Below are positions 9,111-35,851 of a stretch of DNA of 64,000 nucleotides, piece after piece. The stretch lies in assembly GCF_016903815.1 (NCBI RefSeq), contig NZ_CP069973.1; one strand, given 5' to 3'. The DNA comes from Escherichia coli. GTDB taxonomy: Bacteria; Pseudomonadota; Gammaproteobacteria; Enterobacterales; Enterobacteriaceae. Under the pieces are notes generated by a model. That model was given only the letters and a program-made list of their open reading frames with translations, did no database searches and had not been told where the DNA came from. Every line of letters begins with the position of its first letter. Positions within the stretch are counted from its first letter, which is position 1. The translations under genes and the position numbers were made by a program.

Positions 9111-9402
9111 CTGCTTTTCCTTGATGCTATAGGGGTGCTGAGACCGATAACGCATTTTGTAAACCATCCCTGTGAGAGCGAATATTCCGATATCTGGTTA
9201 TTAATTTATGATTCTTGTTTTATGTGATCGTGGTAGCGTTAATTCCGCTCATATATCATTGTAAAATATGGGTTTTATATGAATTATAATGCTTTCGTGA
9301 TAATACGCTGCGTGTATTAGGCGGAAAAAACTGATCTGGGGGATGTAGAAACTCAAGGAAGTAGCTATAATGCGCCCCGCCTCCATGTAGCAATCGAGGC
9401 GC

Positions 9403-9497
9403 GGAAGATCGTCGTCTCCGGTGAGGCGGCTGGACTTCAAATCCAGTTGGGGCCGCCAGCGGTCCCGGGCAGGTTCGACTCCTGTGATCTTCCGCCA
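9403..9497 (+). tRNA. selC: tRNA-Sec (selenocysteine tRNA), 95 nt ending in CCA
   Basis: Sequence GGAAGATCGTCGTCTCCGGTGAGGCGGCTGGACTTCAAATCCAGTTGG...GTTCGACTCCTGTGATCTTCCGCCA read directly; UCA anticodon loop (CTTCAAATC); long variable arm. Confidence 0.95.
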
Positions 9498-9796
9498 GTT
9501 TACCTCTTCTGAACTCTCCCAATGTCAATAAATCTCTTCTAATCCCTTGTATATCAGTATTTATTTGTATCCAGAGGTCAACCTACTTCACCCCGTATCA
9601 AGTTTCTTTTGGGGGTACTTTAGGGGGTGTTATTTCCTATTGAAATACCAGCACCCCCATAATAGGAAAAATATGATATATAACAACGGCTTTTAACAAC
9701 ATCTTTGTTATACAAGGGGTGTATTGGGGGTATCAGGTTAGTTACTGGCAGAAATCCCCCTCAGGAACATGAATTCATCAAAAGCCGGAGGATGTC

Positions 9797-10981
9797 ATGG
9801 CATTAACCGATATCAAAGTGAAAACCGCAAAACCCAAAGACAAACCCTATAAGCTTGCTGATGGCGGCGGTATGTATCTACTGATTAACACTAATGGTTC
9901 TAAATACTGGCGCATGAAGTACCGCTTTGCTGGTAAAGAAAAGATGCTTTCTATTGGCGTATACCCCGATGTAACGCTAGCCGATGCTCGCGAGAAACGC
10001 AGTGAAGCCAGGAAACTCCTCGCTGCTGGAGGCGATCCAGGGGAGGCAAAAAAGGAAGAAAAAATCGCGCAGCAAATGAGTCTGCAAAATACGTTCGAGG
10101 CTATTGCTCGCGAATGGCACCAGTCAAAAGCCGATCGGTGGTCATTACGCTATCGTGATGAAATCATTGATACCTTTGAAAAAGACATTTTTCCCTACAT
10201 TGGCAAGCGCCCTATTGCCGAAATCAAACCAATGGAGTTACTGGAAGCACTGCGTAAAATGGAAAAACGTGGAGCTCTGGAGAAAATGCGCAAGGTCCGC
10301 CAGCGCTGTGGTGAGGTGTTCCGCTATGCAATTGTTACTGGCCGGGCAGACTATAACCCAGCCCCCGATCTTGCCAGTGCTTTAGCTACACCGAAAAAAG
10401 TACATTTTCCCTTTCTTACTGCTAATGAACTTCCCCACTTCCTCAACGATCTGGCGGGTTATACCGGAAGTATAATCACTAAGACAGCTACTCAGATCAT
10501 TATGTTAACCGGCGTACGAACACAAGAACTGCGTTTTGCACGCTGGGAAGATATCGATTTTGAGACAAAATTGTGGGAGATCCCGGCAGAAGTAATGAAG
10601 ATGAAGCGACCTCATATTGTGCCGCTCTCTGAGCAGGTCATTATGCTATTTAAGCAGCTTGAACCAATCTCAAAACATCATCCCCTAGTCTTTATCGGTA
10701 GAAATGATCCCCGCAAACCAATTAGTAAGGAAAGCATTAACCAAGTAATTGAATTACTTGGATATAAGGGAAGACTCACAGGGCATGGTTTCAGACACAC
10801 CATGAGTACAATTCTGCATGAACAAGGCTTTAATTCCGCCTGGATTGAAATGCAGTTAGCTCATGTGGATAAAAATTCCATCAGGGGTACCTATAATCAT
10901 GCCCTGTATCTCGATGGCCGCCGTGAAATGATGCAATGGTACGCTGATTACATTGATTCACTCTCCAGCCGGGAAAGTTAA
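9797..10981 (+). CDS. P4-family tyrosine integrase (394 aa), island integrase at selC
   Basis: N-terminus MALTDIKVKTAKPKDKPYKLADGGGMYLLI... typical of P4-type integrases; C-terminal catalytic region with HGFRHT and Y; strong RBS GGAGG; 300 bp downstream of selC. Confidence 0.85.
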   Translation: MALTDIKVKTAKPKDKPYKLADGGGMYLLINTNGSKYWRMKYRFAGKEKMLSIGVYPDVTLADAREKRSEARKLLAAGGDPGEAKKEEKIAQQMSLQNTFEAIAREWHQSKADRWSLRYRDEIIDTFEKDIFPYIGKRPIAEIKPMELLEALRKMEKRGALEKMRKVRQRCGEVFRYAIVTGRADYNPAPDLASALATPKKVHFPFLTANELPHFLNDLAGYTGSIITKTATQIIMLTGVRTQELRFARWEDIDFETKLWEIPAEVMKMKRPHIVPLSEQVIMLFKQLEPISKHHPLVFIGRNDPRKPISKESINQVIELLGYKGRLTGHGFRHTMSTILHEQGFNSAWIEMQLAHVDKNSIRGTYNHALYLDGRREMMQWYADYIDSLSSRES

Positions 10982-11391
10982 GTCAAAAATACTTTTCCCT
11001 GATGTTTTCCTCAATTAAGTATTTTATCCTCTGGCCTACAAGGCTGGAGGATTTTTGTTATTATATTATTTTTTGCGTCTTCAAACTTATTACAAAAACA
11101 TAATTAAAAGCAAATTGACATTTTTAAATTGGCAATTACAAAATACAGCCTTGCAGTTATTTCGATACCTTTAGCAAAGGAAAAGTTGATTCAGATATAA
11201 TTTAGCATTTCAATCATCTGACATCATTATAAAAAATGAGATTCACATAAAGATAAAATTATTGTTCTCAAGGAAAGCATGAAGGGGCTTTGTAAGCAAT
11301 ATTCATTCAGTGCCAAGACAGGACTTGATACACAGAATCTCAACTTTTATGCTCTCAGACTATATCACCACATGTTTTACAGGCTCAGAAA

Positions 11392-12435
11392 ATGAACGAT
11401 AGATTATGCTTTGAAGTGCACGATAACCAGGGTTATTTCGTATTTCCGGATACCTGGTTTGGCCCATTGCTGGGGGAGTTTGAAGAAGTGCTTGATGCAT
11501 ACGACGCTGATGAAATCAGCGAGACGAGTTACATCAACAAACTCCGACGCCTTGCTCAACGGGAGCCGGACTTTATTGATATACACGCTCATCTGGCATA
11601 TGCATTTCTGGAACAGAATGCCCCGCGTAAGGCACTGAACGCCGCTCTTAAAGGACTGGCGGCAGGTAATCGTATCATCCCGGAAAGTTTCTGTGGTGAA
11701 ATAATCTGGATGCATCCCGAAAACCGGCCTTATCTGCGCGCGCTTTATGCAGCAATTCTCGCAAATGTGCACTTACAGCGCCATCAGGATGCGGTTATGC
11801 TCACTGATAAAATACTGGCATACAATCCTGAAGATAATCAGGGGGCTCGCTGGTTGTTGGGTTCAGAGCTGTTACGCACCGGCGATCATGAGCGAGCCTT
11901 CAGTGTACTGAAAGAGCATGCTGATGAATTTTCACCTTACTGGTATGAACTCGGTCTCCTGCATTTTCTGAACGGGGAACATGTTAAGGCCGCCACAGCT
12001 TTTCGCCATGGCTTTGCCACAAACACTTACATCGCAGAAATGCTGTGCGGAAATCTGCATCCATTTCCACTTGCTGTGTGGCATGACTTCTCCGGCTCTC
12101 TGGATACGGCAGAAGATTACTATGCAACATACTCACCATTATGGGGACAATATCCGGAAGCATTGCTGTTTGTAAACTGGCTCTATAATCATTCCTCTGT
12201 GCTGCATGAACGGGCAGAAATCATTAAATGCGCCGAAATGCTGATGCAGGAAGATGATTTCGAAATATGCGAAAGTATTTTAAGACAGCAGGAGAAGTTG
12301 CGTGAAAGAATTGATGAGACGCTTTCTGAAAAAATTGTACAGAAATGCAGAAATATGAATGGTGAATATGTCTGGCCCTGGATATTGCCGTTTTCAGCGG
12401 CAGGCATGAAACATACTGGCATACAGTATCAGTAG
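11392..12435 (+). CDS. hypothetical protein (347 aa), island cargo of unknown function
   Basis: Long ORF after a 410-bp AT-rich spacer downstream of the integrase; predicted mainly helical, no recognised motif. Confidence 0.55.
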   Translation: MNDRLCFEVHDNQGYFVFPDTWFGPLLGEFEEVLDAYDADEISETSYINKLRRLAQREPDFIDIHAHLAYAFLEQNAPRKALNAALKGLAAGNRIIPESFCGEIIWMHPENRPYLRALYAAILANVHLQRHQDAVMLTDKILAYNPEDNQGARWLLGSELLRTGDHERAFSVLKEHADEFSPYWYELGLLHFLNGEHVKAATAFRHGFATNTYIAEMLCGNLHPFPLAVWHDFSGSLDTAEDYYATYSPLWGQYPEALLFVNWLYNHSSVLHERAEIIKCAEMLMQEDDFEICESILRQQEKLRERIDETLSEKIVQKCRNMNGEYVWPWILPFSAAGMKHTGIQYQ

Positions 12436-12832
12436 ATATTGCATTAGTGTATCCTGCACACAAGTAATAATTTATCCACCAATAATAACACTGTTAATGT
12501 CCCCTTCCCCTGGTTGTCAGCCAGGGGTTATCTTCTGAATATTTCTTTTGAAAAGGATAACACAGTAAATTATTTTTATGAATTATCCCATGGACTCATT
12601 AACACCCTTTCATAATGCTTTATTGTCAAACACGTTATGGCTGACATCAAAAAAAACCGGATTTCCTCTGCCAGCGGGTAATCACCTTCCCGGTGTTTTC
12701 GGTTGGTCTGGTTACTCCTGTCTGGTTATTAGCAAGATAATTGCTATAAACAGTGGAAAACTCATCGTACATAATCTGGTGATGAACATTACGCTTATTT
12801 TCCCTTGACCGGAAGAATCAGAGGCTGTGGTT

Positions 12833-13903
12833 TCAGTCATACAGTCCATCTCCTTTAATCGGAGTTGGCTCTTTCCCTGGCCGTATACGGCGAACAGATT
12901 CTCGTATTACCAGTTTCCCATACAAAAGTAATGCACCAACAGTTGCATCAGGACGTACAAGTCTTTGTTGTAACATATGTACCGCTTCAGTACCCAGTTC
13001 ATCGCGAGGTACATGTACTGCCGTAAGTGGCACATCTTCTATTGCAGCCAGATTAAACCCATCAATACTCATTACGGACACATCTTGTGGCACTCGTATA
13101 TTACGTTTTTTTAAAGCGTTAATTATACCTGCAGCAATGAAGTCCCCACTTGCCAAAAAAGCAGTCGGTAGCATACTTTTCTCTGTCATATCCAGCCATG
13201 CTCCGACTTTTTCTTCGGCTTCTTTGGCGCTGAAACTATTAATAGTGAGTAAATCTCTGTCATCTTTAAAGTTCTGATTCTGTCTCTCCCATGCTTCTTT
13301 AATTCCGGCAAGTCGCAGTTCCATTGTGTATCGACGTAAACACATAATGTTCATTACTCTGCGATGCCCCATTTCAAACAGAAAGTGAGACGCAAAAGCA
13401 CCAATGTTTTTGTGATCTGGAGCAACTGTGGGAAGACGCATACGTCGATCATGGCAGTTAATCATTACGCACGGCTTAGAAAAATCTGCTGCAAGATCAT
13501 GTATATGAGGATCATCAATACCAAGCAATATTGCAGCCTGTGTTTCTGCCTCATTCATGCGCGCCAGGAATTTTGAAGGTGTACTATCGAACTCATCAAG
13601 GGCACAGTAACGCAACCGAACCTCATAATGCGATAATGCCTTGCTGATGCTTTGGATTACGCGGAAATAAAAAATGTCTGTTCGCTCATCAAAAGCCCGT
13701 TGAGGAGCAAAAATGACAAGGTTGTTTAACAACATACGGCCGGATGCCATTCCATCCATAACCCCAAGCTCTCTGGCACACGCCAATACTTTCTCGCGGG
13801 CACGATAACTGGTATTAGCTTTACCCGCTAAAACCCGTGACACGGTGCTGGATGAAAGGCCTGTTCGCATGGCAATATCAGCAATCTTTAGTTTTTTTTC
13901 CAT
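12833..13903 (-). CDS. LacI-family transcriptional regulator
   Basis: N-terminal HTH (KIADIAMRTGLSSSTVSRVLAG) plus periplasmic-binding-like sugar-binding core; start placed at first ATG (the track ORF begins at an upstream TTG, 13927). Confidence 0.8.
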   Translation of the reverse strand: MEKKLKIADIAMRTGLSSSTVSRVLAGKANTSYRAREKVLACARELGVMDGMASGRMLLNNLVIFAPQRAFDERTDIFYFRVIQSISKALSHYEVRLRYCALDEFDSTPSKFLARMNEAETQAAILLGIDDPHIHDLAADFSKPCVMINCHDRRMRLPTVAPDHKNIGAFASHFLFEMGHRRVMNIMCLRRYTMELRLAGIKEAWERQNQNFKDDRDLLTINSFSAKEAEEKVGAWLDMTEKSMLPTAFLASGDFIAAGIINALKKRNIRVPQDVSVMSIDGFNLAAIEDVPLTAVHVPRDELGTEAVHMLQQRLVRPDATVGALLLYGKLVIRESVRRIRPGKEPTPIKGDGLYD

Positions 13904-14164
13904 ATTGTGATCTATCTCTAATTTCAAAATGAAAAAATTCTCATGGGATGGAATAGCCTGACTGCAAGGACTTCTGACTATTTTTAGAATTTATATGAAC
14001 TACTTATGAAAAAACGTGCACAATACCAACTTTTTTTCATCGCCCCCCTCTTTTATTGTGAATGAGTAGTTCCGGTTTAAGTATTAAGCCGAAAGGTAAA
14101 GTGGGATGTGGCAACCCCGAGCTGCGTTGTCGCTCGATCATTTATTACATCCGGTGGGGTGATT

Positions 14165-15466
14165 ATGAGTCAGGATATAAATAATAATATAGCTGTCAGC
14201 AAACACCGTCGAATAATAAGACAACTACGGTGGTGGATGTTAATCCTTTTTCTAATGGGTGTCACTGTCAATTATATTACCAGAAACTCATTAGGTATTT
14301 TGGCACCAGAGTTAAAAGACAGCCTTGGAATTACAACTGAACAATACTCCTGGATTGTTGGTGGATTTCAGCTTGCATATACCCTTTTTCAGCCACTTTG
14401 TGGATGGCTAATTGATGTTATTGGGCTCAAGATTGGATTTATGATTTGTGCTTCATTATGGGGAATTGCTTGTCTTCTGCATGCAGGAGCAGGAAGCTGG
14501 ATACAGCTTGCGTTGCTTCGTTTTTTCATGGGAGGTGCTGAGGCTTCTGCGACACCTGCAAATGCAAAAATTATAGGTGAGTGGTTTCCAAAATCTGAAC
14601 GTCCTGTTGCTGCTGGCTGGGCGGGTGTCGGTTTTTCTATCGGTGCAATGCTTGCACCACCAATTATTTACTTTGCACATGCGTCATTTGGTTGGCAGGG
14701 TGCATTTATGTTTACAGGTGCACTTGCAATTCTTTGGGTTTTCCTTTGGTGGGCGTGTTATAACACACCAGAAGAGCACCCAAACTTAAGTAAAAATGAG
14801 CTCAACTTTATCCGACAGGATAACGAAGCTCCTCCGGTAAAAATGCCTTTTCTGACCGCGTTAAAAACAGTTAGTAAAAATAAACGCTTTTATGGAATCG
14901 CTATCCCTGCATTTATGGCAGAGCCAGCATGGGCTGTAATGAGCTTTTGGGTGCCATTATATCTTGCAAAAGCATATGGCATGGACCTTAAACAAATAGC
15001 TCTGTTTGCATGGTTACCATTTCTTTGCGCTGATTTAGGAAGTATTGCCAGCGGATATCTGACAAAACTCTATACCCGTCTGTTTGGGTTAAGCAGAGTA
15101 AATTCTGTTATTGCGTCCTCTGTAAGCGGAGCATTTCTAATGGTTTCGCTTGCTGTGATTGCTTTTATCGACAATCCATATATTGCTATTGTACTTATCT
15201 CCATTGGTGGTTTTGGTCATCAGATAATTTCCTGCATGTTAAGTGCCCTGGTCGTTGAATCTTTTGATAAGGGGCAGATGGCCACTGTTAATGGAATGCG
15301 TGGTTCAGCCGCATGGATTGCCAGCTTTTTGTTCTCACTGATTATTGGCGTTACTGCTGACAAAATAGGCTTTAACCCGCTATTTATCGCCATGGGATTT
15401 TTTGATCTTATTGGTGCTTTTTTTCTGGTTACTTTTATTGCAGAACGTCGCAAAAAACGCACCTGA
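14165..15466 (+). CDS. MFS transporter (ACS/ExuT-like sugar acid/oligosaccharide permease)
   Basis: 12-TM MFS; start placed at ATG preceded by GGTGGGGTGA RBS (MSQDINNN...); the track ORF extends upstream to 14108. Confidence 0.8.
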   Translation: MSQDINNNIAVSKHRRIIRQLRWWMLILFLMGVTVNYITRNSLGILAPELKDSLGITTEQYSWIVGGFQLAYTLFQPLCGWLIDVIGLKIGFMICASLWGIACLLHAGAGSWIQLALLRFFMGGAEASATPANAKIIGEWFPKSERPVAAGWAGVGFSIGAMLAPPIIYFAHASFGWQGAFMFTGALAILWVFLWWACYNTPEEHPNLSKNELNFIRQDNEAPPVKMPFLTALKTVSKNKRFYGIAIPAFMAEPAWAVMSFWVPLYLAKAYGMDLKQIALFAWLPFLCADLGSIASGYLTKLYTRLFGLSRVNSVIASSVSGAFLMVSLAVIAFIDNPYIAIVLISIGGFGHQIISCMLSALVVESFDKGQMATVNGMRGSAAWIASFLFSLIIGVTADKIGFNPLFIAMGFFDLIGAFFLVTFIAERRKKRT

Positions 15467-15480
15467 GGGAGTATGTGGAG

Positions 15481-17862
15481 ATGAAAACATTAAAAAACTG
15501 GAAACTACAAAATCAGTCAGCCCATCATATAGAGCTATTAGTTGATGGTCAGCATTCTCTTTGCCTGTATATACTCGAAGAAAATATGTTCCGGGTTCTA
15601 TTAAAACGGAAGGGGGTTTTGTCGCTGGACCGAACCTGGAGCATTGCTCCGGAAAAGGATGTCCCGTGGGAAGGGCGTCATCGCGAAGATATTAGCGGTT
15701 TTTCACTGCCGACCTGGAACATGGAGCAGAATGATGAATTACTGACAATCACGACCAGTTCATTACGCGTAATTATTCACAAGCCTTTATGGCTTGAATG
15801 GCATTATAAGGATAATGCTGGTCAGTGGCAGGAACTTGTTAATGATCGCCCTACCAGTGCTTATCTGATAAACGCTCATGGTGATGGTGTTGCACACTAT
15901 CAAAGTCGACGTAATGACGAGCGTTTTTATGGACTTGGTGATAAATCCGGGGATCTGCAACGCACAGGAAAACGCTATGAAATGCGGAACCTGGACGCAA
16001 TGGGATATAATGCAGTAAGTACAGACCCTCTTTATAAACATATTCCATTTACAATTACTCACCGTAGCGATATTAGCTTTGGATTATTTTATGATAACCT
16101 CAGCAATAGTTGGCTGGATTTAGGTAATGAAATAGATAATTATCATACAACTTACCGCCGTTGGCAGGCTGAGGCGGGAGATATTGATTATTATCTTTTC
16201 ACTGGCAGATGTGTACTTGATATCACCAAAGCCTTTGTTCGTTTGACGGGGAAAACACTCTTCGGTCCAAAATGGAGTCTTGGGTACAGCGGTTCCACGA
16301 TGCACTATACAGATGCACCGGATGCTCAGAATCAATTGATGCAGTTTATTCGTCTTTGTAAGGAACATGCTATTCCATGTGATTCTTTCCAGCTATCTTC
16401 TGGTTATACTTCTATTAATGGTAAACGCTACGTATTCAACTGGAATTACGACAAAGTTCCACACCCTAAAATGATGAGTCAGGAGTTTCATAATGCAGGG
16501 ATACACCTGGCCGCTAATATAAAACCATGTTTATTGCAGGATCATCCTCGCTATAACGAAGTAGCAGAACAAGAGCTCTTTATTCGTGACTCTGAATACA
16601 ACGTCCCGGAACGCTCCAGCTTCTGGGATGATGAGGGTTCTCATCTGGACTTTACGAACCCACAAACAGTCGCATGGTGGCAGGAAGGTGTAACCACACA
16701 ACTACTTGAAATGGGAATTGATTCCACCTGGAATGATAACAATGAGTTTGAAGTATGGGATGGGGAAGCGCGCTGTCATGGTTTTGGCAAAGAAATCGCC
16801 ATTAAACACATTCGGCCAGTAATGCCTCTTTTAATGTGCAGAGCATCTATGGAAGCACAGCAAAAATTTGCACCGAACAAACGACCATATTTGATTTCCC
16901 GCTCTGGATGCGCCGGATTGCAGCGTTATGTTCAGACATGGAGTGGGGACAACCGAACTAACTGGGATACCCTTCGATACAACACCCGCATGGGGCTGGG
17001 AATGAGCCTCTCAGGATTGTATAACATTGGTCATGATGTCGGTGGTTTTTCTGGTGATAAGCCTGATCCAGAATTATTTGTTCGTTGGGTTCAGAACGGT
17101 GTTATGCACCCCCGATTTACGATCCACTCGTGGAATGATGATCATACTGTCAATGAACCATGGATGTATCCGGAAGTAACACCCGCGATTCGTAGTGCAA
17201 TTGAGTTACGTTATCGTCTTATGCCTTATTTATATACATTATTGTGGCAGGCACATGCCGATGATGAGCCAATATTACGTCCAACCTTCCTTGATCATGA
17301 GCACGATGTTCAGACATTTGAAGAATGTGATGATTTTATGCTGGGACGCGATATTCTGGTTGCAAGTGTCGTGGAAGCAGGGCAACGACAACGACGAGTA
17401 TGGTTACCCGACAACAAAACAGGATGGTACGACTTTTACAATGGCGAATGGTTCTGTGGTGGTCAATGGATAACAATCGACGCGCCACTGGAAAAACTAC
17501 CATTATTAGTACGTGCAGGTGCAGGTATTCCTCTTAGTGAACGTATAACATACGTGAGTGAAGCGGAAGATAATCATCGTAAATTGAAATTATTCCCAAT
17601 TAAAGGAACGGGTAAATCCACCGGACTTCTGTTTGAAGATGATGGCGAAACTTGGGGATATACTGAAGGTAATGCTCTGTGGCTTGAATGGGAGCTGGAC
17701 TGCACAGCCACTACAATTGAGTTAAGAATAAACACTCATGGAGATTATCGCCCTGCATGGGAAACATTGAAAGTGATAATTCCTCAGGGAGAAAGTCGTC
17801 AACTACTGATTAACGGCATTGAGGCTTATGAATGGAATATGAACCTATCCTGTAATGATTAA
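15481..17862 (+). CDS. glycoside hydrolase family 31 (alpha-glucosidase/alpha-xylosidase-like)
   Basis: GH31 signatures including WNDNNE and GDN; start at ATG after GAGGGAG RBS; second GH31 enzyme in the window besides yicI. Confidence 0.85.
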   Translation: MKTLKNWKLQNQSAHHIELLVDGQHSLCLYILEENMFRVLLKRKGVLSLDRTWSIAPEKDVPWEGRHREDISGFSLPTWNMEQNDELLTITTSSLRVIIHKPLWLEWHYKDNAGQWQELVNDRPTSAYLINAHGDGVAHYQSRRNDERFYGLGDKSGDLQRTGKRYEMRNLDAMGYNAVSTDPLYKHIPFTITHRSDISFGLFYDNLSNSWLDLGNEIDNYHTTYRRWQAEAGDIDYYLFTGRCVLDITKAFVRLTGKTLFGPKWSLGYSGSTMHYTDAPDAQNQLMQFIRLCKEHAIPCDSFQLSSGYTSINGKRYVFNWNYDKVPHPKMMSQEFHNAGIHLAANIKPCLLQDHPRYNEVAEQELFIRDSEYNVPERSSFWDDEGSHLDFTNPQTVAWWQEGVTTQLLEMGIDSTWNDNNEFEVWDGEARCHGFGKEIAIKHIRPVMPLLMCRASMEAQQKFAPNKRPYLISRSGCAGLQRYVQTWSGDNRTNWDTLRYNTRMGLGMSLSGLYNIGHDVGGFSGDKPDPELFVRWVQNGVMHPRFTIHSWNDDHTVNEPWMYPEVTPAIRSAIELRYRLMPYLYTLLWQAHADDEPILRPTFLDHEHDVQTFEECDDFMLGRDILVASVVEAGQRQRRVWLPDNKTGWYDFYNGEWFCGGQWITIDAPLEKLPLLVRAGAGIPLSERITYVSEAEDNHRKLKLFPIKGTGKSTGLLFEDDGETWGYTEGNALWLEWELDCTATTIELRINTHGDYRPAWETLKVIIPQGESRQLLINGIEAYEWNMNLSCND

Positions 17863-18459
17863 TTTATTGTAGAGGGTAAATCATGGCCAAATAAAGGCAC
17901 TGTAAGAGTAAAACTTATAGTGCCTTTATATACAAGCCAGATTATAACGCCATGCAATGAAACGCCCCCATGCATACGTAGATTAACTATCTCTTACCAT
18001 TTTACATATCCGAAAGAATATGTTTTAACAGAAAGGTAAAACATGAGCGATAATAAAAAAGAGCACTTCCACAATGTAATAATAAGATGGGTTATTATTT
18101 TCGCCACTATTGAATACATATATTTATTTATAAAGTTTCTCTAAAGTCTTAATACCCATCCCATCAAAAAACAATGCGGGGTTGTTAAAATAACAACATA
18201 ACACTGTTTTCATGAGAATAGTAAAGCGTTTATTCAAAACCGTTTATAGCAACCCCATAAACCCAACATAGCAATTGAGTTTAAAAAGGAGATTTCATTG
18301 TCCCCTATCAATTAAACTTCATGTTTTTTAGTTTGTTTATAAAACAACATCATATCTCCTATAAAATACTCAGCAGTATTAAACCACCTTATCTTTAACC
18401 AAACTATTTATTCCGCAAGCCCACACTTATGGATATTTACCGTTGGTAATGACTCCAAC

Positions 18460-18963
18460 TTACTGATAGTGTTTTATGTTCAGATAATGCCCGATGACCT
18501 TGTCATGCAGCTCCACCGATTTTGAGAACGACAGTGACTTCCGTCCCAGCCTTGCCAGATGTTGTCTCAGATTCAGATTATGTCGCTCAATGCGCTGAGT
18601 GTAACGCTTGCTGATAACGTGCAGCTTTCCCTTCAGGCGTGATTCATACAGCGGCCAGCCATCCGTCATCCATACCACGACCTCAAAGGCCGACAGCAGG
18701 CTCAGAAGACGCTCCAGTGTGGCCAGAGTGCGTTCACCGAAGACGTGCGCCACAACCGTCCTCCGTATCCTGTCATACGCGTAAAACAGCCAGCGCTGAC
18801 GTGATTTAGCACCGACGTAGCCCCACTGTTCGTCCATTTCAGCGCAGACAATCACATCACTGCCCGGTTGTATGCGCGAGGTTACCGACTGCGGCCTGAG
18901 TTTTTTAAGTGACGTAAAACCGTGTTGAGGCCAACGCCCATAATGCGTGCACTGGCGCGACAT
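18460..18963 (-). CDS. insB: IS1 InsB reading frame (expressed as InsAB by frameshift)
   Basis: ORF-track 167-aa frame overlapping insA inside IS1. Confidence 0.8.
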
Positions 18964-19157
18964 CCGACGCCATTCATGGCCATATCAATGATTTTCTGGT
19001 GCGTACCGGGCTGAGAGGCGGTGTAAGTGAACTGTAGTTGCCATGTTTTACGGCAATGAGAGCAGAGATAGCGCTGATGTCCGGCAGTGCTTTTGCCGTT
19101 ACGCACCACGCCTTCAGTAGCGGAGCAGGAAGGACATCTGATGGAAATGGAAGCCAC
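18882..19157 (-). CDS. insA: IS1 InsA (91 aa)
   Basis: ORF-track protein [40 protein letters not shown]... inside the IS1 copy. Confidence 0.85.
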
Positions 19158-19212
19158 GCAAGCACCTTAAAATCACCATCATACACTAAATCAGTAAGTT
19201 GGCAGCATTACC

Positions 19213-19301
19213 AAATCTGGAGCTACCACGCGTTGTTCTGGCTGGCGATAGGGATGTTGGGTATTGCGATGATTTGCCTGCTGTTTATTAAAGATATTTA
19301 G
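19213..19301 (+). pseudogene. 3' remnant of an MFS sugar-efflux gene (setC-like), truncated by IS1
   Basis: Immediately after the IS1 end an in-frame stretch ...IWSYHALFWLAIGMLGIAMICLLFIKDI-stop remains with no start; in K-12 setC lies between selC and yicL (recalled). Confidence 0.5.
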
Positions 19302-19411
19302 CTCACCAGTCTGGGCTAAGAAAAATCGGCGTGGCGCAAACAGAGCCATCCTCGCCATTTTTGCTATCATGCCTGCATACATAAACGACAAAACAGTATG
19401 CAGAGGGAAAA

Positions 19412-34400: not shown

Positions 34401-35851
34401 CCGGAAACAGCTACTTTTCCGTCCGCTGATTGCAGGGAGGCGGCTTCAATGTCATAACCTTTCAGCGCATATTTGGTTTGTAAGGAAGAAACCAGCGATT
34501 TAACCTCACCCGGCTTGCCTTTCAACGGATCGGTCAGCGTCAGCCGCACCAGCTCTTTCTTGCGATATTCAAGGACAATATTGTTATTACGATCGACCAG
34601 GTCATAGCGACTGCCCACAAGGCTGCGTCGTGCTGCAACTTCAGCCGGATCGAGCTGTTTTTGCAGTGAATGACCGGGTTGCAACGTCAACTCCATACCA
34701 ATTCGGGTGTCGTTTTCTCCCTGTTTGCCCTGCCGTTGCTCGGCACTAAAGGAGATCAGAGGAACAGGGGTATAACTCAAACCTGCGGTAATCGCGTGAG
34801 GATCATTTTGTCGCTCGTCTTTACCAAACAGCGCCACTTCATCGCCATAATATTGTTCATAGACCAACTTGCCGCCCAGCTGCGGCCAGGCCGGTAACCA
34901 GCCTTCGGCGCGAAGATCCCACCCGTTCGCCGGACGTGCTTCATAGTCATTGTCGAGTTCCGGTGCACTACGCCAGTTACTGAGGCGCAGATAACCGTTG
35001 CCGCTCAGTTTCAGGTAATCGCGCCAGTATTCAACGCCCATCCCGGTTCGGGTGTGATAGCGGGTCAGGTCATGATCGATAAACATATTGACGCCAGACA
35101 TCCAGCTCGATGTGAAATAACGCCAGCCGATACCGTGGTTGGTTTGAGTGCGATCATCCGTACGGTGAAGTGTGTGCTGGCTTAAGACCAGGTTATCCGG
35201 CGTTTCGTACCAGGGATGGAGAAATTCAAATGACGAGCTTTTAAGGCTGAAATCTTCATCCACACCAAGAGATACCCGGGCAGTTCCCCAACGACTGAGC
35301 CAGTCCGTTGCCTGCGCAGATGCAGAAGAAGCCACCCAGCCACGCGCCATACTCGCCGCCTGTTCGCTGTCCATATCGCGTGCTAAAAGTGTTCCGCTTT
35401 GCTGCGCCACTTCCGCGACCTGCATTTGCGGATCTTTGCCATCGCGCTCCATCTGCATTGCTTTCAGGTTGCGCGCTTCAGGGCTGTTACTGTTAATGAG
35501 GGGCACATCTATTTCATCGCCCTGACGCACATGGTCAAAGCCCCGCGCAAAGGTACGGAACTGATTCAGGCGACGTAATTCATCAACGGTGATACCAAAG
35601 CGTGCCGCGACCGTTGGTGGCGATTCCAACGCACCCAGGGTATATGGAATAGTTTTAACGTTCGGCAGGATCAGTGACGCGGCAGTATCCGAGTGCGCAG
35701 GATTAATATGCGTCGGGGCAGCAGCCATAACAGGGAAAATAGTTTGTGTTATCAGGCAAATACCTGCGGTCAGACGACGTAAACGATCCCCCAATCCACA
35801 TATGGTGTTATCGCCCCGACGATCGCCATTCCCATGCGCTTTCCCTGCCAT
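25487..35851 (-). CDS. giant intimin/invasin-family inverse-autotransporter adhesin with about 20 tandem Ig-like (Big) repeats; 3' end replaced by IS1 (3454 aa as read)
   Basis: N-terminal LysM-like segment and intimin-type beta-barrel region (YWRDYLKLSGNGY, ERPANGWDLR, LVYEQYYGDEVALF, SRYDLVDRNNNIVLEY), then repeated ~97-aa modules (PDGTVEISVTSQTAG...VTDAFGN...); the stop codon TAA lies inside the IS1 terminal repeat (25487-25489). Resembles the EaeX/Air adhesin described with the eip locus (recalled). Confidence 0.85.
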   Translation of the reverse strand: MAGKAHGNGDRRGDNTICGLGDRLRRLTAGICLITQTIFPVMAAAPTHINPAHSDTAASLILPNVKTIPYTLGALESPPTVAARFGITVDELRRLNQFRTFARGFDHVRQGDEIDVPLINSNSPEARNLKAMQMERDGKDPQMQVAEVAQQSGTLLARDMDSEQAASMARGWVASSASAQATDWLSRWGTARVSLGVDEDFSLKSSSFEFLHPWYETPDNLVLSQHTLHRTDDRTQTNHGIGWRYFTSSWMSGVNMFIDHDLTRYHTRTGMGVEYWRDYLKLSGNGYLRLSNWRSAPELDNDYEARPANGWDLRAEGWLPAWPQLGGKLVYEQYYGDEVALFGKDERQNDPHAITAGLSYTPVPLISFSAEQRQGKQGENDTRIGMELTLQPGHSLQKQLDPAEVAARRSLVGSRYDLVDRNNNIVLEYRKKELVRLTLTDPLKGKPGEVKSLVSSLQTKYALKGYDIEAASLQSADGKVAVSGKDIQVTIPPYRFTAMPETDNTYPIAVTAEDSKGNFSRREESMVVVEKPTLSLADSTLSVDLQILLADGKSTSMLTYTARDSSGKPIPGMTLKTQAKGLQDFALSEWKDNGNGTYTQIVTAGKTSGALSLMPQFNGDDIAKTPALIAIVANTASRADSTIETDQDNYVAGKPIVVKVTLRDDNGNGVTGRKELLKQTVKVDNTKADAVSAWTEESEGIYKASYTAHLIGDKLTAQLTMPGWQTKHSDAFSIAGDKDTAKIAAMQITANNAVARRDHNTVAVTVRDVHQNLLQGQNVTFTVVNGAAVFADPNGGIVTTDKDGIASVNLASDQAVNSLIKAEINGSSQSVEVSFITGDISQLTSTIKTDDVSYTAGGKIKVSVTLMDEQKNLVKGMASLLAGSGVVEVSGTDKNEMGNWSEESDGVYTTTRTAKIAGDRHYATLKLSTWSSAQQSDAYAIRESGAVLAYSSIVTDKTTYTAGGAIKVTVTLKDSYENLVGGQRDAINQAIQLPNTKAESIAWNEDQKGIYTATYTALLPGTGLKAQLQMSGWASALTSNDYSISGDAASAQIVAMQVTTGNPDVLANGSDRHTVNVRVEDQFGNVLPEQTVTFTVTKGAAVFANAGQSADIRTDAHGMAEVDLSSTVADASTVEAKVNQSSDSKTVNFVADVSTAQVAELVVTQDGSVADGSTANMLRVRVTDVFGNVLAGQTVSVTADNSATVAPTVITGPDGTVEISVTSQTAGTSAITASINNSSLSRNVTFVADVRTAKIADLVVTRDNSVADGAMANTLRVRVTDAFGNTLAGQTVSVMADNSATVSPTVTTEPDGTVEISVTSQTAGVSTVTASINSSSQSRNVTFVADVRTAKIADLVVIKDGSEADGSTANTLRARVTDAFGNTLGGQTVSVLADNGATVAPTVTTQPDGTVEISVTSQTAGTSTVTASINNSSLSQNVTFVADVRTAKIADLVVIKDGSVADGATANTLQVKVTDAFGNALNGQTVSVMAGNGATVTPTVITGPDGTVEISATSQTAGISTVTVTINNSSLSRNVMFVADVRTAQIADLVVIKDGAVADGAMANMLQVKVTDAFGNTLAGQTVSVLAGNGATTASTVTTQPDGTVEISVTSQTAGTSVVTASINNSSQSRNVTFIADVRTAKIADLEVIKDGSEADGSTANTLRARVTDAFGNALAGQTVSVLADNGATVALTETTKPDGTAEISVTSQTAGVSAVTVSINNSSQSRNVTFIADVRTAQIAELVVIKDGSEADGSTANTLRVRVTDAFGNALAGQTVSVLADNGATVAPTVTTQPDGTVEISVTSQTAGTSTVTASINSSSQSRNVTFIADVSTAQIADLVVIKDDSVADGAMANTLRVRVTDAFGNALAGQTVSVMAGNGATVAPTVITEPDGTVEISVTSQTAGISAVTASINSSSQSRDVTFIADVRTAKIAELEVIRDNAVADGSTANTLQVKVTDANDNTLAGQAVSVLAGNSATVASTVTTKPDGTVEISVTSQTAGTSTVTASINSSSLSRNVTFVADVSTAKIADLVVIQDNSVADGAMANTLRMRVTDAFGNTLGGQTVSVTADNSAMVASTVITGPDGTVEISVTSQTAGISIVTASINNSSLSRDVTFVADVRTAQIADLVVIKDGSEADGLTANTLQVRVTDAFGNALAGQTVSVLADNGATVAPTVTTQPDGTVEISVTSQTAGVSAVTATINSSSQSQNVTFIADVRTAKIADLVVIKDGSEADGSTANTLRARVTDAFGNALAGQAVSVMAGNSATVTPTVTTQSDGTVEFSVTSQTAGTSTVTASINSSSLSRDVTFIADVRTAQIAVLEVTQDYAVADGSTANTLRARVTDAFGNALAGQTVSVLGGNGATVSPTVITGPDGTVEISVTSQTAGASTVTASINSSSLSRNVTFVADVRTAQIAVLEVTQDYAVADGSTANTLRARVTDAFGNALAGQTVSVTAGNGATVSPTVITGPDGTVEISVTSQTAGVSAVTATINNSTASQNVMFIADVRTAKIADLVVIKDDSVADGAMANMLRARVTDAFGNALAGQTVSVMAGNGATTAPTVTTQPDGTVEISATSQTAGISTVTATINNSSLSRNVMFVADVRTAQIADLVVIKDGSVADGSTANMLRVRVTDAFGNALGGQTVSVLADNGVTTAPTVITEPDGTVEISVTSQTAGVSAVTATINSSSQSQNVTFIADVSTAKIADLVVIKDGSEADGSTANTLRVRVTDAFGNTLAGQTVSVLADNGATTAPTVITEPDGTVEISVTSQTAGVSAVTASINSSSQSRNVTFVADVRTAQIADLVVIKDGSEADGATANTLRARVTDAFGNALAGQTVSVLADNGATVAPTVTTQPDGTVEISVTSQTAGISAVTASINNSSLSRNVTFIADVSTAKIADLVVIKDGSEADGSTANTLQVKVTDANGNTLAGQTVSVLAGNSATVTPTVTTKPDGTVEISVTSQTAGISAVTASINSSSQSRNVTFIADVRTAKIADLVVIKDDSVADGAMANMLRARVTDAFGNALAGQTVSVLAGNSATVAPTMTTKPDGTVEISVTSQTAGTSTVTASINNSSQSQNVTFVPGDASQLTSIVETNKSNYTVGETITITVTLRDAFDNLVTGAASQLAADGVLTVAGTDPSEMGSWVESGGVYTTTRMATIASTNQHANLQLQTWSDGVTSDRYDIQSGSPAQATSTIATDKNAYTAGDTITVAVTLKDAHGNLVEGGESLLSGDNVTVEGAVRSGGWSETAGVYTATWSAQMAGDSHHATLKLSEWGSSKQSESYSIHSGAPVQANSAIRTDKSAYIAGEPLTVTITLRDEFGNPALGLTSEVIESYIDSFAVGGATHDAMRWVEQNNGEYTIVWTAWVAEENLVASLKLKTWATEIKSSLYGIQPGAAAKTQSTIVADKTIYIAGDSITVTVVLKDAQGNFITDGVVQLNEENG
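26480..32400. repeat. tandem array of about 20 near-identical ~291-bp coding repeats (Ig-like domain units) inside the adhesin gene
   Basis: Protein-level count of 20 near-identical units; the many plus-strand ORFs in this span are antisense artefacts of the repeat. Boundaries approximate. Confidence 0.8.

What the first reader, a model, noticed from the sequence alone, without database searches (positions are those of the whole stretch)
9607..9667. Nested inverted and direct repeats between selC and the integrase gene
In the island-proximal attachment region the motif GGGGGT occurs twice in direct orientation (9611-9616 and 9623-9628), GGGGGTG/CACCCCC form an inverted pair (9623-9629 and 9652-9658), and TCCTATT/AATAGGA form an interleaved inverted pair (9635-9641 and 9661-9667). 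Their position just upstream of the integrase gene suits integrase or Xis/IHF arm-type binding sites or an int promoter operator.
Basis: seen in the sequence. Interest (0 to 1): 0.25.

Follow-up and report, generated by a model that had tools for sequence, protein, structure and literature searches.

The report
P4-type integrase arm-binding repeats beside selC

Summary
Only the GGGGGT copies matter.

- **Clustering.** Four of the window's 11 GGGGGT copies lie within 121 bp. None of 400 simulated sequences reached that density.
- **Conservation.** The three hexamers in the finding never vary in 15 distinct integrase-bearing relatives (0 of 270 cells). Flanking columns vary in 127 of 900 cells.
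- **The P4 layout.** There are two direct copies 12 bp apart, starting 112 bp after the tRNA end, and an inverted copy about 31 bp further on. Phage P4's annotated arm repeats (TTGGGGGCAT) start 113 bp from its core and have the same layout. So do most of 80 related integrase loci.
- **Link to the integrase.** The motif variant tracks the integrase's N-terminal arm-binding domain, not the tRNA target.
- **Both arms.** G5T-class elements also carry the pair on the other side of the core, which argues against a purely RNA role.
- **TCCTATT/AATAGGA** is not conserved. The interleaved "nested" reading fails.

A second, looser copy set (9714-9763) and the published IHF site of PAI I536 (about 9692-9714) lie nearer int. 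Published constructs suggest those carry autorepression.

Verdict: a new member of a known kind. Integrase binding is inferred, not shown.

The parts
9403..9497 (+). selC (tRNA-Sec). Its 3' end is the attachment core of attL.
   Evidence: ARAGORN; Rfam tRNA-Sec, 83.8 bits. The 3' end aligns with the annotated P4 attP core.
9578..9602 (+). Three phased short repeats with a 10-bp period: TCAAC (9578), TCACC (9588), TCAAG (9598). Candidate sites for an accessory factor (excisionase or IHF type). Function unassigned.
   Evidence: Read. The TC / T / ATC columns at about alignment positions 101-102, 111 and 120-122 are invariant across window, P4 and six other lineages. P4 has TCCGA/TCCGT/TCCGG at the same places.
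9609..9620 (+). Arm repeat DR1 (TTGGGGGTACTT), first direct copy of the distal set.
   Evidence: Starts 112 bp after the selC end. P4 DR1 (TTGGGGGCATAA) starts 113 bp after its core. The G5T hexamer is invariant in 15 distinct integrase-bearing relatives.
9621..9632 (+). Arm repeat DR2 (TAGGGGGTGTTA), second direct copy, 12 bp after DR1.
   Evidence: The 12-bp spacing matches P4 and nearly all relatives. Invariant hexamer.
9631..9647 (.). Small AT-rich palindrome TATTTC-N5-GAAATA between DR2 and the inverted copy. Unassigned.
   Evidence: 88% paired across relatives, with one C-G/T-A covarying position in 5 cells. Weak evidence, and compatible with either a DNA or an RNA role.
9649..9660 (-). 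Inverted arm repeat IR (minus strand ATGGGGGTGCTG; plus strand CAGCACCCCCAT).
   Evidence: The C5 run starts 31 bp after the DR2 G5 run; relatives give 30-32 bp. ACCCCCATAAT is invariant in the integrase-bearing rows.
9635..9667 (.). TCCTATT (9635-9641) / AATAGGA (9661-9667) inverted pair. Judged a chance match and not part of the element.
   Evidence: 71% of cells paired; positions 2 and 5 are unpaired in 10/16 and 12/16 distinct sequences. 7-nt inverted repeats occur 183 times in the window.
9692..9714 (.). Region holding the IHF site mapped in PAI I536. It overlaps the tandem 13-bp repeat TAACAACGGCTTT/TAACAACATCTTT (9681-9706).
   Evidence: Primer MC125 of PMC7286903 equals window 9692-9711 exactly. 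Primer MC124 matches 9715-9735 with one G fewer. Fragments starting at MC125 bind IHF and those starting at MC124 do not.
9714..9735 (+). Int-proximal direct copies: AAGGGGTGTA (9714-9723) and TTGGGGGTATCA (9724-9735).
   Evidence: (D1). The core of GGGG..A.TG.GG.TATCAGG is invariant in 8 divergent selC islands. In O157:H7 a deletion of about 106 bp puts this pair 113 bp from selC.
9752..9763 (-). Int-proximal inverted copy, degenerate (plus strand AAATCCCCCTCA; G5A rather than G5T).
   Evidence: The C5 run at 9756-9760 is 30 bp after the G5 run at 9726. It is less conserved: partly deleted in STLIN_13 and ET625.
9797..10981 (+). P4-family tyrosine integrase gene. Its N-terminal arm-binding domain is the presumed reader of the repeats.
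   Evidence: Pfam Arm-DNA-bind_3 (residues 3-88, E 2.8e-30), Phage_int_M and Phage_integrase. Solved N-terminal domains 3JU0/3JTZ match residues 1-95.

Best explanation
The GGGGGT copies at 9609-9660 are the arm-type integrase binding sites of the island's attL (the P' arm). They correspond to the annotated 'attP arm sequence repeats' of phage P4.

Proposed mechanism:
1. The integrase binds DNA through two separate parts. Its C-terminal domains bind and cut the core at the selC 3' end.
2. Its N-terminal arm-binding domain (residues about 3-88) binds the two direct copies (DR1, DR2) and the inverted copy (IR) about 112-160 bp away.
3. Bending of the DNA in between lets one integrase bridge arm and core. 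This builds the nucleoprotein complex for excision, or for integration in the attP form.

In this lineage the standard set has been separated from int by about 135 bp. That stretch carries an IHF site and a second, looser set of copies (9714-9763). The second set, not the reported one, most likely mediates the integrase's repression of its own gene.

Shown here: the repeat layout, its conservation, its homology to P4, and its link to the N-terminal domain. Inferred: actual binding, and the division of labour between the two sets.
For: 1. Clustering. Four of the window's 11 GGGGGT copies lie within 121 bp. None of 400 simulations matched this.

2. Homology to P4. The P4 GenBank record annotates 12-nt 'attP arm sequence repeats'. 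Two direct copies (TTGGGGGCATAA, TTGGGGGCATCT) begin 113 bp from the core, and an inverted copy (TTGGGGGCACAT) lies at the int start. The window has TTGGGGGTACTT and TAGGGGGTGTTA beginning 112 bp from the selC end, and an inverted ATGGGGGTGCTG, with the same 12-bp and roughly 31-bp spacings. The whole arm of about 190 bp aligns end to end with P4's with almost no gaps.

3. Generality. A motif-blind search for the best 11-14-bp-spaced direct repeat in 80 integrase relatives (58-100% aa identity; seven tRNA types) returns a 12-bp-spaced pair at tRNA end +109 to +127 in most loci. An inverted copy lies downstream.

4. Selection. There are 0 differences in 270 cells of the three hexamers, against 127 in 900 cells elsewhere, in 15 distinct integrase-bearing sequences (Fisher p = 7e-16; phylogeny not corrected). 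One locus that has lost int (LEE-linked, L006) has 3 of 18 motif positions changed, about the same as its flanks at 12 of 60. Groups B and C share no alignable sequence between DR2 and IR with the window, yet keep the motif and its geometry.

5. Link to the integrase. Pfam finds an arm DNA-binding domain. Motif classes (G5T, G5CAT, G5CYT, TGTATAG) follow the N-terminal domain rather than the tRNA target or the C-terminal part. For example, L019 is 94% identical in the C-terminal part but 66% in the N-terminal domain, and carries G5CAT. selC-targeting integrases use three different classes.

6. Both arms. Viral contigs L097 and L173 show attR-type junctions. A G5TA direct pair starts 99 bp before the end of a tRNA-Thr 3' fragment (P4: 97 bp). 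These sites lie outside any int leader.

7. Experiments on a near-identical sequence. In PAI I536, IntI represses its own promoter and IHF binds between the two sets. Constructs starting at window-equivalent 9692 retain autorepression (PMC7286903). P4 Int also represses its own promoter (stated in PMC2951348).
Against: - No binding experiment exists for this sequence. I could not read the primary P4 papers (Pierson & Kahn 1987; Piazzolla 2006), so the arm-site status rests on the P4 GenBank annotation and on secondary citations.
- The link between motif and N-terminal domain could reflect physical linkage, because the sites sit just upstream of the 5' end of int. Some lineages with only 59-71% N-terminal identity still use G5T.
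- The window has no second core copy, no P-arm pair and no excisionase homologue. In this particular island the sites may no longer serve recombination.
- Direct repeats one helical turn apart are also typical of excisionase sites.
Confidence: 0.8

Rival explanations
1. RNA stem-loop in a selC-int read-through transcript. The GGGGGUG...CACCCCC hairpin (9623-9658) forms in RNA and attenuates or stabilises int transcripts driven from the tRNA promoter, as reported for ICEKp1.
For: - ICEKp1, another element with int directly downstream of a tRNA gene (tRNA-Asn), transcribes int from the tRNA-Asn promoter. Stem-loops in the 161-bp spacer reduce full-length transcript (PMC13023037).
- No terminator-like site follows selC in the window, and no consensus promoter was found on the + strand.
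- The predicted hairpin has -19 kcal/mol and is kept in the fold of the whole spacer.
- The inner stem TATTTC/GAAATA shows one covarying pair.
- Hairpins are also predicted in other lineages, with z from -1.3 to -4.3.
Against: - The hairpin is no better than shuffled sequence (z = -0.8).
- The six conserved stem pairs never vary, so they carry no covariation signal. The seventh is broken in half of the sequences without compensation.
- DR1, which is outside the hairpin, is just as invariant.
- In other lineages the best fold pairs the inverted copy sometimes with DR1 and sometimes with DR2. That is what a motif repeated in both orientations would give.
- The set keeps a fixed distance from the core, not from the int start.
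- The same motif pair occurs on the far side of the core in P4 and in L097/L173, outside any int leader.
- No U-tract follows the hairpin, so it is not an intrinsic terminator.
- The two roles could coexist.
Confidence: 0.1
2. The direct repeats are binding sites for an excisionase (Vis/AlpA/Xis type) rather than for the integrase.
For: Excisionase sites are typically direct repeats about one helical turn apart (PMC7498355), and DR1 and DR2 are 12 bp apart. P4 Vis bends att DNA and also represses int.
Against: - The window has no Vis homologue (best tblastn E = 0.47), and none is annotated in the BL21(DE3) version of the island. The sites are nevertheless invariant.
- An inverted copy is part of the conserved set.
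- The motif class follows the integrase N-terminal domain.
- The P4 record labels these repeats arm repeats.
- A different set of 10-bp-phased repeats just upstream (9578-9602) is a better excisionase candidate.
Confidence: 0.06
3. The reported region itself is the int promoter/operator. The invariant CATAAT at 9658-9663 would be a -10 box occluded by integrase bound at the inverted copy.
For: - CACCCCCATAAT is invariant in the integrase-bearing relatives.
- By my own inspection, P4's DR1 (GGGGGCATAAT) contains a CATAAT that lies 18 bp after a TTGAAA. This is not a tool result.
- Integrase autorepression is documented for P4 and for PAI I536.
Against: - The consensus scan finds no + strand promoter here.
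- By inspection, the best -35 candidates are poor (TTCCTA, 3 of 6) and fall in the non-conserved TCCTATT stretch.
- PAI I536 constructs that start at window-equivalent 9692 or 9715, and so lack this region, still express int and still show autorepression.
Confidence: 0.04

Closest known systems
Phage P4 attP arm repeats (GenBank NC_001609 features 'attP arm sequence repeat'; Pierson & Kahn 1987, cited from memory and from reference lists)
   Same: G5-centred 12-nt motif. Two direct copies 12 bp apart begin 112-113 bp from the tRNA-derived core, and a third inverted copy lies about 30 bp downstream. Int is immediately downstream in the same orientation, and the whole arm aligns end to end.
   Different: - The motif is GGGGGT(A/G), not GGGGGCAT.
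- In P4 the inverted copy overlaps the int start; here it is 137 bp upstream of it.
- A second set of copies plus an IHF site has been interposed.
- This island has no detectable P arm, attR or Vis.
PAI I536 (selC island of uropathogenic E. coli 536) intI promoter region (PMC7286903)
   Same: Essentially the same DNA. Primers MC125 and MC124 match window 9692-9711 (exact) and 9715-9735 (one G fewer). IntI autorepression and an IHF site between the two motif sets were shown experimentally.
   Different: That study did not map integrase binding sites, and its minimal constructs exclude the region reported here. PAI I536 is mobile and has a right-end repeat according to the paper, whereas the island in this window shows none.
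[quoted passage not shown]
   Same: Arm-type sites lie between a tRNA gene and int, and integrase (with the excisionase) represses int through them.
   Different: The integrase lineage and motif differ (TAAA-containing P' sites). There the sites overlap the -10/-35 boxes directly.
Lambda Int arm-type sites P'1-P'3 (general knowledge; summarised in PMC2951348)
   Same: An integrase with two DNA-binding parts, adjacent direct arm sites, and IHF-assisted bridging to the core.
   Different: Unrelated motif, a different family of N-terminal domain, and no inverted copy in the P' arm.
ICEKp1 int 5'-UTR stem-loops (PMC13023037)
   Same: The spacer between a tRNA gene and the downstream int contains inverted repeats that can fold.
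   Different: There the effect was shown at the RNA level by deleting stem-loops. Here the evidence favours DNA sites (fixed distance to the core, copies in the other arm, no covariation).

Membership tests
P4-type attachment-site arm repeats (integrase arm-type sites) | Adjacent tyrosine integrase of the P4 family with an N-terminal arm DNA-binding domain | tested here: met
   Pfam Arm-DNA-bind_3 at residues 3-88 (E 2.8e-30), plus Phage_int_M and Phage_integrase. PDB N-terminal domains 3JU0/3JTZ match residues 1-95.
P4-type attachment-site arm repeats (integrase arm-type sites) | Located in the arm between a tRNA 3'-end core and int, with int downstream in the tRNA's orientation | tested here: met
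   tRNA-Sec 9403-9497 (+), repeats 9609-9660, int 9797-10981 (+).
P4-type attachment-site arm repeats (integrase arm-type sites) | Several copies of one short motif, distinct from the core, more clustered than chance | tested here: met
   Four GGGGGT copies in 121 bp out of 11 in 64 kb; 0 of 400 simulations reach this.
P4-type attachment-site arm repeats (integrase arm-type sites) | Same positions and spacing as P4's annotated repeats (about 113 bp from the core; 12-bp direct spacing; inverted copy about 30 bp on) | tested here: met
   112 bp / 12 bp / 31 bp in the window against 113 / 12 / 30 in P4. The arms align end to end. The same geometry holds in most of 80 relatives.
P4-type attachment-site arm repeats (integrase arm-type sites) | Conserved in homologous islands beyond background | tested here: met
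   0 of 270 motif cells differ against 127 of 900 elsewhere. Conserved where flanks are unalignable.
P4-type attachment-site arm repeats (integrase arm-type sites) | Matching repeats in the other arm (P arm, next to attR in the integrated state) | tested here: not met
   This window has no second core copy and no other G5T pair, so this island lacks the feature, probably through decay. The G5T class as such has it: L097 and L173 carry a pair starting 99 bp before the core end, against 97 bp in P4.
P4-type attachment-site arm repeats (integrase arm-type sites) | Bound by the integrase N-terminal domain | not testable with these tools
   Needs a gel-shift or footprinting experiment. The only support is indirect: the motif class tracks the N-terminal domain.
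IHF binding site of the attachment arm | Experimentally bound IHF site within the reported coordinates | tested here: not met
   The site mapped in PAI I536 lies between primers MC125 and MC124, which correspond to window 9692-9714 and are outside 9607-9667.
Excisionase (Vis/AlpA/Xis) binding sites | Cognate excisionase encoded by the element | tested here: not met
   tblastn of P4 Vis against the window gives a best E of 0.47. None is annotated in the BL21(DE3) island.
Excisionase (Vis/AlpA/Xis) binding sites | Direct repeats about one helical turn apart | tested here: met
   DR1 and DR2 are 12 bp apart. This feature is shared with integrase arm sites, so it does not discriminate.
Structured RNA element (5'-UTR stem-loop or H-type pseudoknot) | Pairing supported by covariation and by stability beyond shuffled sequence | tested here: not met
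   - Stem 1: six invariant pairs and one uncompensated break.
- Stem 2 (the interleaved pair): 71% paired.
- Hairpin z = -0.8.
- No Rfam family other than tRNA-Sec.
Structured RNA element (5'-UTR stem-loop or H-type pseudoknot) | The region is transcribed on the + strand (selC read-through or own promoter) | not testable with these tools
   No terminator-like site follows selC and no + strand consensus promoter was found. Needs RNA data.

The most novel reading that the evidence does not exclude
In this selC lineage the arm-site set has been duplicated, or separated from int, so that two jobs done by a single set in P4 are now split. The distal set (the finding) keeps the exact P4 distance from the core and serves recombination. 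The proximal set, together with the IHF site, acts as the operator for integrase autorepression. Natural collapse to one set, as in the O157:H7 deletion of about 106 bp that places the proximal pair exactly 113 bp from selC, would then change island stability. More broadly, the lineage-specific motif variants (G5T, G5CAT, G5CYT, TGTATAG) that move together with the N-terminal domain would amount to a readable arm-site specificity code for P4-family integrases.
Probability: 0.25. Interest if true: 0.4.

Novelty: new member of a known kind. Interest (0 to 1): 0.25.

Why it matters
It gives exact, testable coordinates for the integrase contacts of a selC island attachment arm found in roughly a fifth to a third of complete E. 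coli genomes (1134 to 1812 of 5426, depending on search sensitivity). Carriers include BL21(DE3), O104:H4 and ATCC 25922. Integrase autorepression has been measured for a close relative, PAI I536, but its binding sites were never mapped. The survey also yields a simple rule for finding arm sites in P4-family islands: a 12-bp-spaced pair about 113 bp from the tRNA end. It further suggests that arm motif and N-terminal domain are exchanged together. None of this changes the accepted picture of how such islands recombine.

Tried and rejected
- **Rfam scan of 9200-10000 at E up to 10.** Only tRNA-Sec matched.
- **Consensus promoter and terminator scan.** It found no + strand promoter and no terminator. 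The only hit was a minus-strand TTGTTA-16-TATTAT at 9686-9659. I could not place the int promoter from sequence, and hand-picked candidates were all weak.
- **Interleaved pairs as an H-type pseudoknot.** Rejected, because the second stem is not conserved.
- **Hairpin stability.** Not better than shuffles in the window.
- **Search for the island's other end.** No second copy of the selC 3' end at up to 3 mismatches, and no other G5T pair. K-12 could not define the right junction, because its own selC flank matches the window only to 9512 and looks like another island remnant.
- **Search for a Vis/AlpA homologue.** None found.
- **Core-copy search in 120 viral loci.** It found nothing within the DNA held. 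P arms were instead recognised by reading contexts.
- **Mutual information between N-terminal residues and motif class.** It gives candidate positions (6, 10, 29, 31, 50, 53), but the result is confounded by phylogeny and I do not rely on it.
- **Primary P4 papers.** Piazzolla 2006 is not held in the library, and two literature calls failed on term length.
- **A redundant search.** The second E. coli search added little.

Full report
**1. The observation**

The window carries yicI-yicJ, tRNA-Sec (9403-9497, +) and, 299 bp downstream, a 394-aa integrase ORF (9797-10981, +).

Their statistical weight differs.
- GGGGGT is rare in the window: 11 copies on both strands, against about 21 expected from shuffles.
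- Four of those copies lie at 9611(+), 9623(+), 9653(-) and 9726(+).
- None of 400 first-order Markov simulations had four copies within 125 bp.
- Perfect 7-nt inverted repeats with short loops, by contrast, occur 183 times in the window. Neither inverted pair means anything without further evidence.

**2. Conservation**

The same selC-int spacer occurs in 1134 (megablast) to 1812 (blastn) of 5426 complete E. coli genomes. These include BL21(DE3) at 99.7% identity, O104:H4 and ATCC 25922.

An alignment of eight divergent E. coli versions, and one of 18 sequences that includes Photorhabdus, Salmonella diarizonae, Yersinia, Yokenella, Trabulsiella, Lelliottia and Pseudocitrobacter, give these results:
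- The three GGGGGT hexamers in the finding never vary in 15 distinct integrase-bearing sequences (0 of 270 cells).
- The other columns differ in 127 of 900 cells (Fisher p = 7e-16, not corrected for shared ancestry).
- The one locus that has lost int (a LEE-linked version with IS remnants, L006) has 3 of 18 motif positions changed. That is about the same rate as its flanks (12 of 60). It is a single case, but it suggests the constraint disappears with the integrase.
- The TCCTATT/AATAGGA pair is only 71% paired, with two positions unpaired in most sequences.

The interleaved, pseudoknot-like reading therefore fails. The second pair is a chance feature of this window.

**3. What it is**

The GenBank record of phage P4 annotates 12-nt 'attP arm sequence repeats'. 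Read in the sense of int, the arrangement is:
- the core, which is the leuX 3' end;
- 113 bp further on, TTGGGGGCATAA and TTGGGGGCATCT in tandem;
- an inverted TTGGGGGCACAT overlapping the int start;
- two more direct copies on the far side of the core.

The window has TTGGGGGTACTT (9609-9620) and TAGGGGGTGTTA (9621-9632), starting 112 bp after the selC end. It also has an inverted ATGGGGGTGCTG (9649-9660), with its C5 run 31 bp after the G5 run of the second direct copy. An alignment from the core to the inverted copy runs end to end with almost no gaps between the window, P4 and six other lineages.

I then fetched 80 loci encoding relatives of the integrase (58-100% identity; targets tRNA-Sec, Arg, Ser, Thr, Phe, Gly and Asn). 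In each I searched, without assuming a motif, for the best direct repeat spaced 11-14 bp between the tRNA and int.
- In most loci this returns a 12-bp-spaced pair at tRNA end +109 to +127, with an inverted copy downstream.
- In the standard arrangement (P4 and most lineages) the inverted copy sits between the ribosome-binding site and the ATG, for example gagatgCCCCCaATG.
- In the window's lineage the set keeps its distance from the core but lies 137 bp upstream of the ATG.
- Two other selC lineages have int about 80 and 45 bp downstream of the set.

The feature tied to these repeats is therefore the core, not the int start. That points to a role in the geometry of the recombination complex.

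**4. Link to the integrase**

The integrase has a Pfam arm DNA-binding domain at residues 3-88.

The motif comes in lineage-specific variants: GGGGGT(A/G), GGGGGCAT, GGGGGC(C/T)T and TGTATAG. Within a locus, all copies change together.

The variant follows the N-terminal domain, not the tRNA target or the rest of the protein.
- selC-targeting integrases whose C-terminal part is 84-94% identical to the window's, but whose N-terminal domain is only 63-69% identical, use GGGGGCAT or, in L031, GGGGCTT. L019 is an example (94% C-terminal, 66% N-terminal).
- Those with an N-terminal domain at least 83% identical use GGGGGT.
- Two selC integrases with 49% N-terminal identity use TGTATAG.

This fits co-adapted sites and reader domain moving as one block. 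Physical linkage alone could also produce the pattern.

**5. DNA or RNA?**

A 2026 study of ICEKp1 shows that an int gene lying directly downstream of a tRNA gene (tRNA-Asn) can be transcribed from the tRNA promoter. It also shows that stem-loops in the spacer lower the full-length transcript. The window has no terminator-like site after selC, and 9623-9658 can fold at -19 kcal/mol. The RNA reading therefore had to be tested.

Evidence against it:
- the fold is no better than shuffles (z = -0.8);
- the conserved pairs never vary, so there is no covariation signal;
- the first direct copy lies outside the hairpin and is equally invariant;
- in other lineages the best fold pairs the inverted copy with either direct copy, inconsistently;
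- the same motif pair occurs on the other side of the core, outside any int leader.

The last point holds for P4. It also holds for two viral contigs of the G5T class, L097 and L173. There a GGGGGTA pair starts 99 bp before the end of a tRNA-Thr 3' fragment with no full tRNA gene present, which is the signature of an attR junction. The matching distance in P4 is 97 bp.

I keep the RNA role as a minor and possibly additional function.

**6. The surroundings and published experiments**

Downstream of the finding lies a second, looser set of copies: AAGGGGTGTA (9714-9723), TTGGGGGTATCA (9724-9735) and an inverted, degenerate TCCCCC (9756-9760). It has the same internal geometry, a 10-11 bp direct spacing and a 30-bp gap to the inverted copy.

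Primers from the study of PAI I536, the selC island of E. coli 536, map onto the window. MC125 equals 9692-9711 exactly, and MC124 matches 9715-9735 with one G fewer. That study reported:
- IHF binds fragments that start at MC125 but not those that start at MC124. This places the IHF site at about 9692-9714, between the two sets.
- IntI strongly represses its own promoter.
- Constructs starting at MC125 retain tight autorepression, and constructs starting at MC124 still express int.

The reported region is thus not needed for autorepression in those plasmid constructs. This is why I assign the operator role to the proximal set and the recombination role to the distal set, which keeps the P4 distance from the core. 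That split is my inference.

In O157:H7 a deletion of about 106 bp removes the distal set and leaves the proximal pair exactly 113 bp from selC. This is what recombination between the two sets would produce.

**7. State of this particular island**

In the window the island is short: int, a TPR protein, a LacI-family regulator, and ORFs at the positions of BL21(DE3)'s MFS transporter and family-31 glycosidase genes. An ORF of yicL's length follows.

I found no second copy of the selC 3' end, no other G5T pair and no Vis/AlpA homologue. The island therefore appears to have lost its other attachment end. Here the sites may now serve only integrase regulation, or may simply be retained from recently mobile ancestors.

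**8. Verdict**

The second inverted pair, the nested structure and the IHF and operator branches are not supported for these coordinates.

This is a new member of a well-known kind, P4-type arm repeats. Its modest new points are the two-set arrangement around an IHF site and the way motif variants track the N-terminal domain. Binding by the integrase remains to be shown.

Noticed in passing
window 9578-9602: Three short repeats with an exact 10-bp period (TCAAC, TCACC, TCAAG) lie just upstream of the first arm repeat. The matching columns are invariant across P4 (TCCGA/TCCGT/TCCGG) and six other lineages, and the repeat sequence changes by lineage. They may be excisionase or IHF sites.
   Followed up: partly
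window 9681-9763: Three features sit here: a tandem 13-bp repeat TAACAACGGCTTT/TAACAACATCTTT (9681-9706), the region of the IHF site published for PAI I536 (9692-9714), and a second, looser set of G5T copies (9714-9735 and 9752-9763). Together with the distal set they look like an old duplication of a unit of about 105 bp.
   Followed up: partly
L007 (E. coli O157:H7 strain 1130) 1500-1700: A deletion of about 106 bp relative to the window removes the distal set. It places the proximal pair (GTGGGGGTG/TTGGGGGTA, 11 bp apart) exactly 113 bp after selC, as if the two sets had recombined.
   Followed up: partly
L006 (E. coli Z1323HEC0108, LEE next to selC) 1598-1760: Int is replaced by IS3 remnants and LEE genes. 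The arm remains, but the G5T copies carry substitutions or a deletion (GGGGAT, C-CTCCC, GAGGAT). They are invariant in every integrase-bearing relative.
   Followed up: partly
L019, L023-L031, L036-L037 (selC integrases from other genera): These integrases are mosaic. The C-terminal part is up to 94% identical to the window's while the N-terminal arm-binding domain is only 49-69% identical. The upstream repeats switch to GGGGGCAT, GGGGCTT or TGTATAG accordingly.
   Followed up: partly
window 9498-19400: The island here is only about 9-10 kb (int, TPR protein, LacI-family regulator, and ORFs at the positions of BL21(DE3)'s MFS transporter and GH31 glycosidase genes). It runs into an ORF of yicL's length with no sign of setC. 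There is no right-end core repeat, no P-arm pair and no excisionase gene, so it looks immobilised. BL21(DE3) has a longer version of about 21.5 kb that ends at setC.
   Followed up: partly
window 25487-35851 (- strand): A single ORF of 3454 aa that has no counterpart in the BL21(DE3) region. It was not examined.
   Followed up: no
L092 (E. coli K-12 MG1655) 418-660: K-12's selC site is not empty. The sequence just after selC (AAAATGCCTCTCCTGA...CCCCTTGTAATACTG) resembles the start of the same island arm and is followed by the yicT pseudogene. K-12 matches the window only up to 9512.
   Followed up: partly
L090 (phage P4) 3912-3926: The annotated P4 int start codon (ATG at 3926) lies inside the inverted arm repeat. 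The start that aligns with all relatives is the next ATG, at 3914. From memory, Piazzolla et al. 2006 reported two possible Int start codons.
   Followed up: no
L129 and L136 (viral contigs), about 130 bp before to 150 bp after the pattern match: Another lineage has an expanded set: two or three direct GGGGGTA copies followed by four inverted TACCCCC copies spread over about 110 bp before int. Displacement of int from the standard set is therefore not unique to the selC lineage.
   Followed up: no
L098, L108, L112, L113, L114, L122 (viral contigs): These contigs carry tandem arrays of three to five GGGGGT(G/A)NNTT units at 11-12-bp period with no integrase homologue nearby. Some share an 'aaaacgaaatgt' element between arrays. 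They may be iteron-like sites of unrelated phages.
   Followed up: no
window 9659-9686 (- strand): The only consensus promoter-like match in the spacer is on the minus strand (TTGTTA-16-TATTAT) and points towards selC. The minus-strand version of the hairpin folds slightly better than shuffles (z = -2.2).
   Followed up: no
window 9544-9556 and 9706-9718: A 13-nt inverted repeat (CCCTTGTATATCA / TGTTATACAAGGG, 92% complementary) brackets the whole distal set. Its right arm overlaps the IHF-site region. Significance unknown.
   Followed up: no
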